64,000 nt of DNA from IMG/VR virus record IMGVR_UViG_3300010885_038456, positions 3,423 through 67,422 of that record; one strand, 5' to 3'. A model generated the notes under the pieces. It made no database searches. It had not been told where the DNA came from and saw only the letters and a program-made list of their open reading frames with translations. The position numbers and the translations under genes were made by a program. Shown piece by piece: positions 16,999 to 62,677 of this stretch; within the stretch, counting starts at the first letter, position 1; each line of letters opens with the position of its first letter. Source of the stretch: a virus.

Positions 16999-17448
16999 AT
17001 GGCAGTATTCCTATTAACAGGACAACCAGGTAGTGGCAAAACTACCATTGGTAAACGATTACAATTTTGGTTACAGACTGATAAAAAGAATTGGAGAAAA
17101 TCAGTATTTCACATCGATGGGGATGATTTACGAAAGGTATTTCCAAACGATGATTATTCCAAAGTAGGTAGAGAACAGAATATGGAGTTGGCATTTAATA
17201 CTGCTAAGTATCTAAACTCGTGCGGTAATGATGTAGTTATATCATTAGTAGCACCTTATAGAGAGTTACGGGATAAGTTTAAAGCAGATTGTAAGGTACA
17301 AGAGATATATTGTCACACTAAACGTAATAGAGGTAAAGAATCATTCTTTGCTATGGATTACGAAACACCACAATCATTCTTTATAGATTTAGATACTTCG
17401 GAATCAATTGATGAAACATTTGGTAAATTGATGAAACTAATTGTATAA
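16999..17448 (+). CDS. cysC: adenylyl-sulfate (APS) kinase
   Basis: LTGQPGSGKTT, IDGDDLR, DYSKVGR..N, SLVAPY...R, YETP. Confidence 0.85.
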   Translation: MAVFLLTGQPGSGKTTIGKRLQFWLQTDKKNWRKSVFHIDGDDLRKVFPNDDYSKVGREQNMELAFNTAKYLNSCGNDVVISLVAPYRELRDKFKADCKVQEIYCHTKRNRGKESFFAMDYETPQSFFIDLDTSESIDETFGKLMKLIV

Positions 17449-17451
17449 AGT

Positions 17452-18024
17452 ATGGAAGAAATAAATGATGAACAATACTTTCCAAATATACAGGAACGTA
17501 TTACAAAAAGAGGGCTTGGGTTTAAACCTATCTTAGAATCACAGATTCGTGCAGCACAAGATAAAGCCAAATCGGCAGCAGAAGCAGCTAGAATGTTAAA
17601 TGTATCGTATAACACATACAAAAAGTATGCTACCTTATATGGTATATTCGAAGACTTATTAAATCCATCGTGTAAGGGTATCGTTCGTAAGACAAATTAT
17701 CATAATCGCAAGTTTGATGTTGAAGATTTGGCGAATGGGAAGTATATGAAGTATCCGATGTATAAGTTTAAGAATAAGTTATTCAATAGTGGTATTATTC
17801 CAAAGATATGTAGTAGTTGCGAATTTAGTGAAGAACGTATTACAGATGGTAAATCACCACTACTGATTGATTTCATTGATGGGAACTTAAATAACAGAAA
17901 CATAGAGAATATAAGACCATTATGTTACAATTGTTTCTTTCTATTAGTTGGTGAAAGAAATGTAAAACATTGGTATGCTGAGCATGGTTATCCAGATGAA
18001 GCAGAATCATTAAAAAATCAATAA
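17452..18024 (+). CDS. HTH plus degenerate HNH-like zinc-binding protein
   Basis: SAAEAARMLNVSYNTYKKY helix-turn-helix; CSSC...IDFIDGNLNN...ENIRPLCYNC. Confidence 0.65.
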   Translation: MEEINDEQYFPNIQERITKRGLGFKPILESQIRAAQDKAKSAAEAARMLNVSYNTYKKYATLYGIFEDLLNPSCKGIVRKTNYHNRKFDVEDLANGKYMKYPMYKFKNKLFNSGIIPKICSSCEFSEERITDGKSPLLIDFIDGNLNNRNIENIRPLCYNCFFLLVGERNVKHWYAEHGYPDEAESLKNQ

Positions 18025-18025
18025 A

Positions 18026-18238
18026 ATGGCAGTAAAAACATCCAAAGAATCGGAAAAGGTTACAAAGTTTCAATACATCTTTAAAGATGATGATTGTATT
18101 TCAATTTGGAAATATGACCTTAGTAAAACTAAAGGTGGGCCTGTTTCGGTAGAGAATCGATATACAGCAAGTCACAATAAGATGATGGAAGAATTGCGTA
18201 TTGCAAAAAGAAAGAAAAGAAAAACGGCTAAATCGTAG
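18026..18238 (+). CDS. hypothetical protein
   Basis: 70 aa ORF in operon, basic C-terminus. Confidence 0.7.
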   Translation: MAVKTSKESEKVTKFQYIFKDDDCISIWKYDLSKTKGGPVSVENRYTASHNKMMEELRIAKRKKRKTAKS

Positions 18239-37440: not shown

Positions 37441-38046
37441 ATGTGTATGAAAAGAATGATGTTTGTTATTAGTGTAGTGGTTGGTTCAGCAATGTTGTTT
37501 ACATCTTGTGCAAAATTTCCACAAGCAGAGTACGATTCTGCAAAAGCAAGTGTGAGTGAAGTTAAAGCAGCTGGAGCAGATGTGTATGTTCCAACAGATT
37601 TTAAAGTGTTAACCGATTCTTTACAGAAAACAGAAGTTACTCTTAATTATGAAAACTCTAAATGGTTTAAAACATTTAAACAATCTAAACTAAGTTTAGC
37701 AGGAGTTAGTAACTTAGCAGTTGAAGTTAAAGGTAAAAACACTAACAGAAAAGACCAATTAAAAAAGGAAAATGAAACTTTAATCAAAGAAACTACTGAG
37801 TTAGTTGCACTTGATAAAGAATTGTTAACCAAAGCACCAAAGGGTAAAGATGGTAGGGCAGCATTAGCAGCAATCGCTGGTGATATCGCAGTTGTTGAAA
37901 CTACGGTTACTGAAGCAACTACATTGAACGCATCTAATGATTTCTTAGGAGCAAATGGTAAACTTAAATCAGCAAAGGACAAAGCAGTGACAATTCAAAC
38001 TGAATTGCAGAACGCTATTGACAAATCAAAAGGGCATACGAAGTAA
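37441..38046 (+). CDS. alpha-helical lipoprotein (DUF4398-like)
   Basis: Lipobox FTS-C; P.AE...AK..V......GA..Y.P. Confidence 0.75.
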   Translation: MCMKRMMFVISVVVGSAMLFTSCAKFPQAEYDSAKASVSEVKAAGADVYVPTDFKVLTDSLQKTEVTLNYENSKWFKTFKQSKLSLAGVSNLAVEVKGKNTNRKDQLKKENETLIKETTELVALDKELLTKAPKGKDGRAALAAIAGDIAVVETTVTEATTLNASNDFLGANGKLKSAKDKAVTIQTELQNAIDKSKGHTK

Positions 38047-38162
38047 TTCTTATTCCAAAAAATTGATTGATGGTTGAAGCCATCAAATAATAAAACCGAT
38101 TGAGTGACCACTTTCTCTATATGTAGGGGGTTAATAAAGCCGGATATCATCAATCAATACCT

Positions 38163-38233
38163 GCGGTGGAAGTGTTACGGTAGCACAACAGACTTCCAGT
38201 TTGAAAGAGAATGTTCAATTCATTCCCACCGCT
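38163..38233 (+). tRNA. tRNA-Gly(TCC), atypical
   Basis: GCGGTGG/CCACCGC acceptor, U73, anticodon loop CT-TCC-AG, T-arm GAATG-TTCAATT-CATTC; A8 and U14. Confidence 0.8.
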
Positions 38234-38251
38234 CTTTAATTTAATTACCTC

Positions 38252-38319
38252 GCGGGTTAAGTGTTACGGTAGCACAGAAACATTCCAGTTTCAGGAGAGA
38301 TTCGACTTCTCAACCCGCT
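38252..38319 (+). tRNA. tRNA-Gly(TCC)-like, strongly atypical (68 nt)
   Basis: GCGGGTT/AACCCGC acceptor, same D-arm as copy 1, irregular anticodon loop, 4-bp T-stem GAGA/TCTC. Confidence 0.6.
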
Positions 38320-38358
38320 CACTTAGTTATGGTTCTAATAAGTAAAAACCAACATATT

Positions 38359-38427
38359 GCGGTATAAGTGTTATGGTAGCATAATGTACTTCCAGTACAA
38401 AGGAGCTGTTCAATTCAGCATACCGCT
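38359..38427 (+). tRNA. tRNA-Gly(TCC), atypical (69 nt)
   Basis: GCGGTAT/ATACCGC acceptor, loop CT-TCC-AG, 4-bp T-stem GCTG/CAGC, U73. Confidence 0.7.
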
Positions 38428-38651
38428 CATTCTCTTAGGAGAAACAGAATCGCATCGTTTTAGCTTGTATGGTTATTGATAATGAGTTCAAGCTTGGTTC
38501 GATGTAAAACTAAACTAAAATTAAAAAAAGTGGGTTATCCGATTTTATGGGAGATTTCTCGTTAAAAAATGGCATGTTCGATGAAGTGCATAACGTGGTA
38601 ATTAAAAACTACCGATGAAAGGCGTTACTCCCAAACCTTTCTTTATATATT

Positions 38652-38724
38652 GTGGTGTTAGTGAAGTGGTTATCATGCTACACTGTCACGGTAGAGATCG
38701 TGAGTTCGAATCTCACACACCACG
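38652..38724 (+). tRNA. tRNA-Asp(GTC)
   Basis: GTGGTGT/ACACCAC acceptor, loop CT-GTC-AC, GTGAG-TTCGAAT-CTCAC, G73. Confidence 0.88.
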
Positions 38725-38764
38725 CTAAGTTATTTCATACATTTTATTAACCAACATTAACAAT

Positions 38765-39229
38765 ATGAATATTGCTAATATATTAGAAAGTGTATTACTT
38801 GCGTTAGTTCTTATACTTGTACCAATCCATACTTCGAAGATGAAACAACATCCACCCGAAGTATTTAAGTTTATGAAGCCGGATATTGTAACGGTAACAA
38901 CTTACACAATCCAATCAGCCGGTATAAGACCGGATACGATATCAACAACAACTGCAAGTGGATTCGAAATCAATGAACGTAATCCGAGAGCACACCGAAT
39001 AATAGCGATAAGTAGGGATTTACGAAAGAAATACGGATTCGGCCAGAAAGTTAGGATTGAAGGTACAGGTATCTACGATGGTATATATGTAGTACGAGAT
39101 TTGATGGATTCCAGATGGAAAAAGAGAATCGATATATTGATTAACGATGTAGATAAACAGATAAAGATTTACAATGTTAAGATTTATAAACTACTGAAGA
39201 AACAACCAACGTTAGAAAAGATTGCATAA
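38765..39229 (+). CDS. 3D (Asp-Asp-Asp) domain cell-wall protein
   Basis: N-terminal TM; TASG, IIAISRDL, FGQKVRIEG, VRDLM, RIDILI. Confidence 0.8.
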   Translation: MNIANILESVLLALVLILVPIHTSKMKQHPPEVFKFMKPDIVTVTTYTIQSAGIRPDTISTTTASGFEINERNPRAHRIIAISRDLRKKYGFGQKVRIEGTGIYDGIYVVRDLMDSRWKKRIDILINDVDKQIKIYNVKIYKLLKKQPTLEKIA

Positions 39230-62578: not shown

Positions 62579-62650
62579 GGCCCGTTCGTCTACCGGTTAG
62601 GACATCAGGTTTTCATCCTGGAAATAGGAGTTCGATTCTCCTACGGGCTA
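62579..62650 (+). tRNA. tRNA-Glu(TTC)
   Basis: GGCCCGT/ACGGGCT acceptor, loop TT-TTC-AT, AGGAG-TTCGATT-CTCCT. Confidence 0.9.
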
Positions 62651-62677
62651 CTATCTAAAGAATTTAAACGACGACAA

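What the first reader, a model, noticed from the sequence alone, without database searches (positions are those of the whole stretch)
38163..38427. Three tandem non-canonical tRNA-Gly(UCC) genes, possibly non-ribosomal glycine donors
Seen: all three keep the Gly identity elements (G1-C72, C2-G71, U73, TCC) but share deviations. A8/U14 replaces the near-universal U8/A14, the D-arm GTGT-TAYGGTA-GCAY is nearly identical, and C32-G38 can pair and shrink the anticodon loop. Copies 2 and 3 have only a 4-bp T-stem (7/4 branch), and copy 1 has an AU-rich T-stem. Their stems differ by compensatory changes, which suggests selection on structure rather than decay. Established: T-stem pairs tune EF-Tu binding; staphylococcal non-proteinogenic tRNA-Gly supply Fem ligases; Gly-tRNA has been reported as the donor for the Mu Mom (GNAT) adenine modification. 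Inference: these tRNAs feed a glycyl-transferase (DNA or glycan modification) or act as anticodon-nuclease decoys.
Basis: partly seen in the sequence, partly recalled or inferred. Interest (0 to 1): 0.8.

Follow-up and report, generated by a model that had tools for sequence, protein, structure and literature searches.

The report
Three odd phage glycine tRNAs
Three deformed glycine-tRNA genes in a large phage belong to a family that in other phages sits right beside the gene for Mom, an enzyme that takes glycine from charged tRNA to disguise DNA, so they probably carry glycine for DNA modification rather than protein synthesis, although no such enzyme is visible in this partial genome.

Summary
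Three diverged tRNA-Gly(UCC)-shaped genes lie at 38163-38233, 38252-38319 and 38359-38427.

All three keep the bacterial glycine identity set (G1-C72, C2-G71, U73, C35, C36). All three also carry a C32...G38 loop closure, which 0 of 35 ordinary phage tRNA-Gly(UCC) show. Their loops, CUUCCAG and CAUUCCAG, are the two commonest among 59 distinct tRNA-Gly-like genes that start within 30 nt of a mom gene (76-78 of 80 Mu-like loci).

Among large phages at least 60% complete, Mom occurs in 5 of 7 records that carry this tRNA type and in 0 of 10 that lack it. Mom is published to transfer glycine from Gly-tRNAGly to DNA adenine.

The best reading is private, non-translating glycyl donors. This rests on family membership only. 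The record is 29% complete and shows no Mom, DruA or Fem gene. The slot that holds Mom in a close relative is empty here.

The A8/U14 D-arm is not specific: 98 of 120 loci with it are tRNA-Trp. This scan had already noted the Mom-tRNA pairing on other DNA (at least 49 genomes). I reached it independently, before reading those notes.

The parts
38163..38233 (+). Copy 1: non-canonical tRNA-Gly(UCC). It has a 7-nt loop CUUCCAG (C32-G38 can pair), A8/U14, a 5-bp AU-rich T-stem and U73, followed by C with no encoded CCA.
   Evidence: ARAGORN. Rfam 49.6 bits. Model R2, built from Mom-adjacent tRNAs only, 61.5 bits. Fold z -3.89.
38252..38319 (+). Copy 2: non-canonical tRNA-Gly-like. Its loop is C-AUUCCA-G (8 nt, or 6 nt if C-G closes). 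It has no nucleotide 26, a 4-bp T-stem and U73.
   Evidence: Missed by ARAGORN and Rfam. R2 52.2 bits. Fold z -3.29. Its loop is identical to the commonest loop of Mom-adjacent tRNAs, 17 of 59. Its ortholog L125:5021-5088 is identical at 61 of 71 aligned columns, with two-sided changes in the acceptor and T stems.
38359..38427 (+). Copy 3: non-canonical tRNA-Gly(UCC). It has a 7-nt loop CUUCCAG, A8/U14, a 4-bp T-stem and U73.
   Evidence: ARAGORN. Rfam 42.7 bits. R2 59.7 bits. Fold z -3.14.
38320..38358 (+). Spacer or trailer between copies 2 and 3. It is conserved with the spacer in front of the copy-2 ortholog in the 266-kb relative L125, and it resembles the trailer of the window's tRNA-Asp. 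It may be a processing or promoter signal.
   Evidence: Sequences. The exact 21-mer from it is found only in L125 among viral contigs. Its function was not tested.

Best explanation
The three genes are paralogs of a virus-only family of non-canonical tRNA-Gly. The proposed mechanism has three steps.

1. The host glycyl-tRNA synthetase charges them, because the bacterial glycine identity set is intact.
2. Their anticodon arm (C32-G38 closure, extra loop base in copy 2) and weak or 4-bp T-stems keep them out of EF-Tu and the ribosome.
3. The Gly-tRNA then serves as a private glycyl donor for a Mom-type, tRNA-dependent DNA-modifying acyltransferase encoded elsewhere in this roughly 230-kb phage.

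What is shown by computation: the genes, their structure, their family membership, and the family's linkage to mom in other phages. What is established in print: Mom uses Gly-tRNAGly. What is inferred: charging, exclusion from translation, and the existence of a partner enzyme in this phage.
For: (1) They are real, selected tRNAs: cloverleaf covariation on 13 members gives 91.5% paired, 15 of 21 pairs with two-sided changes, and 0 of 500 shuffles as high.

(2) Linkage to mom in Mu-like phages. A Mom gene (PF25680, E 3.8e-53) overlaps the same tRNA type in L016. Of the 80 best Mom loci, 76 have one model hit that starts -6 to +30 nt (median 6) from the end of the Mom match, 47 on the same strand and 29 on the opposite strand. 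Two more have a visible tRNA-like sequence.

(3) Among the 59 distinct Mom-adjacent sequences:
- GCG start in 59 of 59 and CGCU end in 58 of 59;
- C35C36 in 59 of 59;
- the base(s) between the first loop base and N34 vary (AU 24, U 19, A 10, C 2, AA 2, AC 2);
- loop length is 7 nt in 31 and 8 nt in 28;
- the loop is closed C...G in 50 of 59.
The invariant positions are the bacterial glycine identity set (PMC9976931, section 23, passages read).

(4) The window's loops CUUCCAG and CAUUCCAG are the second commonest (14) and commonest (17) in that set. Ordinary phage tRNA-Gly(tcc) in 120 loci show U33 with A38 or C38 in 35 of 38; the other 3 of 38 are members of this non-canonical family (CAUCCAG x2, CGUCCAG x1). 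None of the 38 has CUUCCAG. Over 784 distinct tRNAs, C32/G38 occurs in 6.

(5) On model R2, built only from Mom-adjacent tRNAs, the window copies score 61.5, 52.2 and 59.7 bits; Rfam tRNA gives 49.6, none and 42.7. Canonical tRNA-Gly of L122 and L124 behave the opposite way: R2 50.7 and 50.8, Rfam 70.8 and 68.9.

(6) Large phages at least 60% complete: Mom is present in 5 of 7 records with this tRNA type and in 0 of 10 without it, Fisher p=0.0034. Each of those seven also carries a canonical tRNA-Gly(UCC), so the odd copies are not needed for decoding.

(7) A close relative, G073 (GroEL 68% identical), has Mom plus one such tRNA.

(8) The subtype pattern occurs in 9 viral contigs and in none of the contigs of one genome for each of 185,579 bacterial and archaeal species.

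(9) Published work. Mom transfers glycine from Gly-tRNAGly to N6 of adenine, and Gly-tRNAAla is not used (PMC13219725: abstract, sections 14 and 38, and passages). Non-proteogenic tRNAGly of S. aureus bind EF-Tu weakly and feed Fem transferases (PMC7826273, introduction).
Against: No partner enzyme is visible. No Mom, DruA, FemAB or Acetyltransf_6 match occurs in the 67-kb record. Four unknown 256-301-aa window proteins show no profile similarity to Mom.

The slot between the kinase and HNH-like genes holds Mom in G073 and an unrelated 263-aa ORF in G079. It is empty here (16999-17448 is followed directly by 17452-18024).

The family is not always linked to Mom:
- G079 (GroEL 73% identical, 51% complete) has two such tRNAs but no Mom.
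- G066 (100% complete) has a family-like tRNA (U2.G71) without Mom or DruA.
- G003 (80% complete) has none.

Mom exists without such tRNAs in Polaribacter phage P12002L and Listeria phage A511, and in phage Mu as published.

Copy 1 is nearly canonical (U33, 7-nt loop, 5-bp T-stem) and could decode. The window copies lack the unpaired A63 that is typical of Mom-adjacent members. R2 scores of canonical tRNA-Gly reach 59.4 bits and overlap copy 2.

The co-occurrence counts are not phylogenetically independent. The 80 Mom loci are one clade, 64-100% identical to the L016 Mom. Model R1 contained three sequences of that clade.

Nothing on expression, charging or EF-Tu binding was tested.
Confidence: 0.5

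Rival explanations
1. They are ordinary decoding tRNAs. The phage supplies extra tRNA-Gly(UCC) to read GGA and GGG in its AT-rich genes, and the odd features are tolerated drift or tuning. This applies above all to copies 1 and 3.
For: Copies 1 and 3 have U33 and 7-nt loops and pass ARAGORN and Rfam. GGA plus GGG make up 45% of 853 glycine codons in 46 long ORFs. The genes sit beside a normal tRNA-Asp. The A8/U14 D-arm is used by clearly ordinary phage tRNAs, 98 of 120 being Trp.
Against: The CUUCCAG loop (G38) occurs in 0 of 38 distinct tRNA-Gly(tcc) of 120 phage loci; 35 of those 38 are ordinary (U33 with A38 or C38) and the other 3 belong to this non-canonical family. C32/G38 occurs in 6 of 784 tRNAs overall. 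Copy 2 has an 8/6-nt loop. Copies 2 and 3 have 4-bp T-stems. Relatives that carry this type also carry a canonical tRNA-Gly(UCC). Family members vary at position 33 (U, A, G, C), which decoding tRNAs hardly ever do: U33 in 772 of 784. GGT, not GGA, is the commonest glycine codon at 50%.
Confidence: 0.2
2. They are decoys or sponges. Charged or uncharged glycine-tRNA look-alikes soak up a host defence factor that targets tRNA-Gly, such as an anticodon nuclease or a TacT-like acetyltransferase toxin, or they persist for such a role after loss of Mom.
For: The identity nucleotides (U73, G71, C35, C36) are kept while decoding features are relaxed. TacT recognises U73 and G71 of Gly-tRNAGly (PMC9976931, passage). 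The tRNAs occur without a detectable Mom in G066 and G079 and in this record.
Against: The tight, two-orientation adjacency to mom in 76-78 of 80 loci is explained more simply by an enzyme-substrate pair. No tRNA-Gly-specific anticodon nuclease was identified here. No test was possible.
Confidence: 0.12
3. They are processing punctuation. tRNA-shaped elements are kept as RNase P/Z cleavage signals that mature neighbouring RNAs, as for the GOLLD RNA that they follow in relatives.
For: In 14 of 21 GOLLD loci, a member of this family starts within a few dozen bases 3' of GOLLD. Other GOLLD loci carry acceptor/T-arm minihelices at that place. A conserved trailer motif lies after copy 2 and after tRNA-Asp.
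Against: No GOLLD exists in this record. A pure processing signal would not need invariant C35C36 and U73. It also would not explain the linkage to mom.
Confidence: 0.08
4. They are decaying duplicates with no function, or copy 2 alone is a natural +1 frameshift suppressor because of its 8-nt loop.
For: Copy 2 is missed by the tRNA finders. Expanded anticodon loops are known from frameshift suppressors (recalled, not looked up).
Against: Two-sided compensatory changes occur between copies and against the ortholog in L125. The same CAUUCCAG loop recurs in 17 of 59 distinct Mom-adjacent genes. The extra base lies 5' of U33, not inside the anticodon.
Confidence: 0.06

Closest known systems
Non-proteogenic tRNAGly (NP1-NP3) of Staphylococcus aureus and S. 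epidermidis, with the Fem transferases (PMC7826273, introduction read)
   Same: Both are extra tRNA-Gly(UCC) paralogs charged by the normal GlyRS. Sequence features are read as impairing EF-Tu and ribosome use, so that glycine goes to a tRNA-dependent GNAT-fold transferase.
   Different: Those are cellular, not viral, and the acceptor substrate is a peptidoglycan precursor, not DNA. NP tRNAs have UGC/UGU in the T-loop, while the window copies keep TTC. The deviations here are the C32-G38 closure, an 8/6-nt loop and 4-bp T-stems. No Fem gene is present.
Bacteriophage Mu Mom with host Gly-tRNAGly (PMC13219725; preprint 10.1101/2023.03.24.534169)
   Same: This is the enzyme family (PF25680) found beside, or together with, this tRNA type in other phages. 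Its proven co-substrate is Gly-tRNAGly, and it is specific for the tRNAGly body.
   Different: Mu uses host tRNAs and encodes none. Neither text mentions phage tRNA genes (term searches; supplements were not seen). No Mom gene lies in this window's record.
GOLLD RNA with neighbouring or embedded tRNAs (Rfam RF02032; 10.1101/2024.12.08.627333 and PMC6582537, passages read)
   Same: Relatives place this tRNA type directly 3' of GOLLD at the head of a tRNA array. The association of GOLLD with tRNAs is published.
   Different: No GOLLD exists in this record. The papers do not say that the adjoining tRNA is a non-canonical tRNA-Gly.
Phage tRNAs with altered anticodon loops that escape host anticodon nucleases
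   Same: Both are phage-encoded tRNAs whose anticodon loops differ from host-type loops.
   Different: Those tRNAs still decode and replace a cleaved host tRNA. Here position 33 and loop length vary, and canonical tRNA-Gly copies coexist in relatives.

Membership tests
tRNA (Rfam RF00005) / bacterial-type tRNA-Gly | Cloverleaf that reaches the Rfam gathering score of 29 bits | tested here: inconclusive
   Copy 1 scores 49.6 and copy 3 scores 42.7 bits. Copy 2 is not reported even at E<=10. All three fold as cloverleaves.
tRNA (Rfam RF00005) / bacterial-type tRNA-Gly | Bacterial glycine identity set: G1-C72, C2-G71, U73, C35, C36 (PMC9976931) | tested here: met
   Read in all three copies. The same positions are invariant in alignment A1.
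Mom-linked non-canonical tRNA-Gly family (defined here from 59 distinct mom-adjacent genes) | Anticodon loop closed by C...G, with UCC preceded by one or two variable bases | tested here: met
   The window loops are CUUCCAG (copies 1 and 3) and CAUUCCAG (copy 2). In the mom-adjacent set these occur 14 and 17 times out of 59, and the C...G closure occurs in 50 of 59. The closure occurs in 0 of 35 ordinary phage tRNA-Gly.
Mom-linked non-canonical tRNA-Gly family | Higher score on a model of mom-adjacent tRNAs than on the general tRNA model | tested here: met
   R2 gives 61.5, 52.2 and 59.7 bits against Rfam 49.6, none and 42.7. Canonical tRNA-Gly of L122 and L124 show the reverse. The absolute R2 scores overlap those of canonical tRNA-Gly (up to 59.4).
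Mom-linked non-canonical tRNA-Gly family | Disturbed T-stem, typically GGNG/CNA-CC with an unpaired A63 | tested here: inconclusive
   Copies 2 and 3 have 4-bp T-stems without the unpaired A. Copy 1 has a regular 5-bp AU-rich stem.
Mom-linked non-canonical tRNA-Gly family | A Mom (PF25680) gene adjacent or in the same genome | tested here: not met
   There is no match at E<=1 in the 67-kb record, which is 29% complete. The slot that holds Mom in relative G073 is empty here. The rest of the genome is unseen.
Staphylococcal non-proteogenic tRNAGly | T-loop UGC/UGU instead of UUC, and use by Fem transferases | tested here: not met
   The T-loops are TTCAATT, TTCGACT and TTCAATT. No FemAB or Acetyltransf_6 match occurs in the record.
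Staphylococcal non-proteogenic tRNAGly | Weak binding of the charged tRNA to EF-Tu-GTP | not testable with these tools
   This is inferred only from the 4-bp or AU-rich T-stems.
Frameshift-suppressor tRNAs with expanded anticodon loop | Extra nucleotide inside the anticodon that gives four-base pairing | tested here: not met
   In copy 2 the extra A lies between C32 and U33, 5' of the anticodon.

The most novel reading that the evidence does not exclude
Phages encode an orthogonal glycine-carrier system. These tRNA-Gly paralogs are still loaded by the host synthetase but are deliberately disabled for EF-Tu and the ribosome. They deliver glycine to DNA-hypermodifying Mom-type enzymes. In this phage, three specialised carriers may serve several enzymes or a still unknown glycyl-transferase.
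Probability: 0.45. Interest if true: 0.85.

Novelty: new variant of a known kind. Interest (0 to 1): 0.72.

Why it matters
Mom was shown only in 2026 to modify DNA with glycine taken from charged tRNA, and it was described as scavenging host tRNA. A conserved viral tRNA family tied to mom would mean that many phages bring their own donor, dedicated and excluded from translation. That would be a viral counterpart of the staphylococcal cell-wall tRNAs.

It would explain a class of 'broken' phage tRNA genes that the standard finders miss. It would show which tRNA features Mom and GlyRS need and which EF-Tu and the ribosome need. It would also offer natural orthogonal tRNA scaffolds.

For this window, it predicts a glycine-derived DNA modification system in the unseen part of the genome.

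Tried and rejected
Searches that found nothing:
- Similar DNA in cultured phages for 37900-38800: no match.
- Relatives of the upstream gene 37441-38046: none.
- Pfam and PHROG scans of the flanking genes: only unknown families, a P-loop kinase and a weak SAM-lyase-like hit.
- Glycan-cluster proteins: formyltransferase, KAS III, SDR and GT2, but no Fem-type enzyme.
- Four unknown proteins of 256-301 aa compared with a Mom profile: probability below 1% each.
- The exact window spacer in metagenome contigs: 0.

DruA (PF14236), a lead from earlier scan notes. It is absent from the own record. It is present in G001, G003, G004 and G064 and absent from G061, G066, G068, G073, G075 and G079, so it is not a consistent partner. 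A shallow profile comparison of the G004 DruA protein with Mom found no similarity, so I do not call it Mom-like.

The 263-aa ORF in the G079 slot has no Pfam family and no similarity to Mom.

Sigma-70 promoter and terminator scan of 37900-38900: counts were no higher than in shuffles, so the scan was not informative.

RNA sequencing runs: no RNA holder was listed.

Absence of an encoded CCA was rejected as a family marker, because the window's tRNA-Asp and tRNA-Glu also lack it.

Cultured phages with Mom-like genes show no family member. P12002L has none in the whole genome. A511 has only a tRNA-Gly with a UUUCCAA loop.

Literature. Term look-ups inside PMC13219725, the 2023 preprint and PMC7824862 were. 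None mentions such a gene.

Full report
WHAT IS THERE

The window is part of a 67,422-base IMG/VR virus record that CheckV rates 29% complete. Its GC content is about 33%. It encodes GroEL, a CobS-like ATPase, thymidylate synthase and a glycosyltransferase cluster.

ARAGORN finds four tRNA genes: Gly(tcc) at 38163-38234 and 38359-38428, Asp at 38652-38725 and Glu at 62579-62651. Rfam tRNA gives 49.6 bits for copy 1 and 42.7 bits for copy 3. It gives nothing for the middle copy, even at E<=10.

Read directly, the middle copy (38252-38319) is a cloverleaf whose anticodon loop is C-AUUCCA-G. That is 8 nt, or 6 nt if C-G pairs, and there is no nucleotide 26. All three copies fold as cloverleaves better than shuffles (z -3.1 to -3.9).

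THE D-ARM IS NOT SPECIAL

In the 120 loci held, the tRNA that carries it is Trp in 98, Gly in 8, Pro in 7, Asp in 3, Gln in 1 and not called in 3. A8/U14 therefore says nothing about a non-ribosomal role.

THE ANTICODON ARM IS SPECIAL

Adding TCCAG at the right distance cut the hits to 9 viral contigs and to 0 in one genome for each of 185,579 prokaryote species. In these relatives position 33 is A, G, C or U, or the loop has six to eight bases, while UCC, C32 and G38 stay.

Among 784 distinct tRNAs that ARAGORN calls in 120 phage loci, U33 occurs in 772 and the C32/G38 combination in 6. Of 38 distinct tRNA-Gly(tcc), 35 have U33 with A38 or C38, and the other three belong to the odd family.

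Thirteen family members support the cloverleaf by covariation: 91.5% of cells paired against 72.8% in shuffles, 15 of 21 pairs with two-sided changes, and 0 of 500 shuffles as high. Copy 2 and its ortholog in the 266-kb contig L125 agree at 61 of 71 columns and differ by two-sided changes in the acceptor and T stems.

THE LINK TO MOM

In the Mu-like contig L016 the only tRNA is of this type. It overlaps the 3' end of a gene that matches Pfam Mom with E 3.8e-53.

Of these, 371 were confirmed and the best 80 were kept. All 80 are 64-100% identical to the L016 Mom, so they form one clade.

Model R1 found exactly one hit in 76 of the 80 loci. Each hit starts -6 to +30 nt (median 6) from the end of the Mom match, 47 on the same strand and 29 on the opposite strand. 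L144 and L202 show a tRNA-like sequence by eye, and L182 and L189 show none. R1 contained three sequences of this clade, so detection is partly by construction. The position and the two orientations are not.

The 59 distinct sequences have the following features:
- GCG at the start in 59 of 59 and CGCU at the end in 58 of 59.
- C35C36 in 59 of 59.
- U34 in 57 and A34 in 2.
- Loops of 7 nt in 31 and 8 nt in 28.
- C...G closure of the loop in 50.

The commonest loops are CAUUCCAG (17), which is the loop of window copy 2, and CUUCCAG (14), which is the loop of copies 1 and 3. Many have a T-stem with an unpaired A63, and some lose G18G19 and the TTC of the T-loop.

The invariant nucleotides are the bacterial glycine identity set: U73, G1-C72, C2-G71, C35 and C36 (PMC9976931, section 23, passages). 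The relaxed features are the ones that EF-Tu and the ribosome use; that last point is my inference from general knowledge.

SCORES

A second model (R2), built only from the mom-adjacent hits, gives the window copies 61.5, 52.2 and 59.7 bits. Canonical phage tRNA-Gly score 41-59 bits on R2, so R2 alone does not separate the classes.

The contrast with Rfam does separate them. The canonical tRNA-Gly of L122 and L124 score 70.8 and 68.9 bits on Rfam and 50.7 and 50.8 on R2. The window copies behave the other way round.

LARGE PHAGES

In L121, L122, L124 and L125 a pair of these tRNAs follows a GOLLD RNA (275-295 bits) at the head of a tRNA array. A GOLLD-anchored sample gave 23 loci, of which 21 are real GOLLD. 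A family member lies directly 3' of GOLLD in 14 of them.

I combined Mom searches with whole-record tRNA classification for records at least 60% complete.

| tRNA type in record | Records | Mom present |
|---|---|---|
| Present | G001, G002, G004, G061, G064 | yes (5) |
| Present | G066, G003 | no (2) |
| Absent | G062, G020, G021, G018, G022, G009, G015, G060, G054, G017 | no (10) |

Mom is therefore present in 5 of 7 records with the tRNA type and 0 of 10 without it (Fisher p=0.0034). These genomes are related, so the p-value overstates independence. I dropped all records below 60% completeness, including G012, which has an ambiguous tRNA and a 28.5-bit Mom-like match.

In the wider control, Mom occurred in 3 of 47 records that share the D-arm motif but have no known family member. 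In the large phages, Mom and the tRNAs lie 9-72 kb apart. Each of these phages also has a canonical tRNA-Gly(UCC).

THIS PHAGE

The 67-kb record has no Mom, DruA, FemAB, Acetyltransf_6 or GOLLD match.

The relatives closest by GroEL are informative:
- G073 (GroEL 68% identical, 40% complete) has a Mom gene between homologs of window genes 16999-17448 (kinase) and 17452-18024 (HNH-like). The gene scores 113 bits and has one TAA inside the match. G073 also has one family tRNA 13 kb away.
- G079 (GroEL 73% identical, 51% complete) has an unrelated 263-aa ORF in that slot and no Mom. It has two family tRNAs in tandem.
- In the window the two flanking genes are 3 nt apart, so the slot is empty.

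The partner enzyme, if any, must lie in the unseen 71% of the genome.

PUBLISHED BACKGROUND

Silva et al. (PMC13219725; I read the abstract, sections 14 and 38, and passages) show that Mom transfers glycine from Gly-tRNAGly to N6 of adenine in dsDNA. All three E. coli isoacceptors work, Gly-tRNAAla does not, and the glycine is said to be harvested from the host. Term searches in that paper and in the 2023 preprint found no mention of phage tRNA genes. Supplements were closed.

The S. aureus non-proteogenic tRNAGly are the nearest precedent (PMC7826273, introduction).

Earlier notes of this scan describe the Mom-tRNA pairing in at least 49 other genomes. I read them after I had found the link. 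They added the DruA lead, which proved inconsistent.

VERDICT

The three genes are real, selected members of a Mom-linked, virus-only class of non-canonical tRNA-Gly. The most likely role is a private glycyl donor kept out of translation (confidence 0.5). Ordinary decoding comes next (0.2), mainly for copy 1. In this phage the enzyme is unseen, and nothing was tested at the bench.

Noticed in passing
L121:9667-10232, L122:8045-8609, L124:6179-6746, L125:4493-5088: A GOLLD RNA (Rfam 275-295 bits) is followed within a few dozen bases by one or two non-canonical tRNA-Gly genes. The same arrangement occurs in 14 of 21 GOLLD loci sampled. Other GOLLD loci carry acceptor/T-arm minihelices or other tRNA-like sequences at that place.
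   Followed up: partly
window 16999-18238: There is a variable cargo slot between a P-loop kinase gene and an HNH-like gene. It holds Mom in relative G073 and an unrelated 263-aa ORF in G079, and it is empty here. The 70-aa ORF at 18026-18238 is a homolog of the small ORF that precedes Mom in G004 and G001.
   Followed up: partly
L016:508-1287: The mom reading frame runs through the whole tRNA gene (1214-1283) and stops 4 nt after it. tRNA processing would therefore cut the mom message before its stop codon.
   Followed up: no
L001-L120 (viral contigs): One D-arm sequence with A8 A9 and U14 is shared by phage tRNAs of five specificities, mostly tRNA-Trp(CCA) with an encoded CCA (98 of 120). 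This is a reversed 8-14 pair in evidently ordinary phage tRNAs.
   Followed up: partly
window 38320-38358 and 38725-38762: Similar trailer motifs (TTAGTTAT / TAAGTTAT ... AACCAACAT) follow copy 2 and tRNA-Asp. The first is conserved in L125. None of the window's tRNA genes encodes CCA.
   Followed up: no
G074:33-461, G075:9320-9772, G012:150097-150513: Weak Mom-domain matches (28-36 bits) lie inside large ORFs of 470-564 aa in phages related by GroEL or by tRNA arm. These may be fused Mom-like enzymes.
   Followed up: no
L020, L034, L039, L093: A further phage tRNA-Gly(UCC) variant has the same D-arm, a CUUCCAC loop, A73 and an encoded CCA. The record of L020 also has a Mom gene (128 bits).
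   Followed up: no
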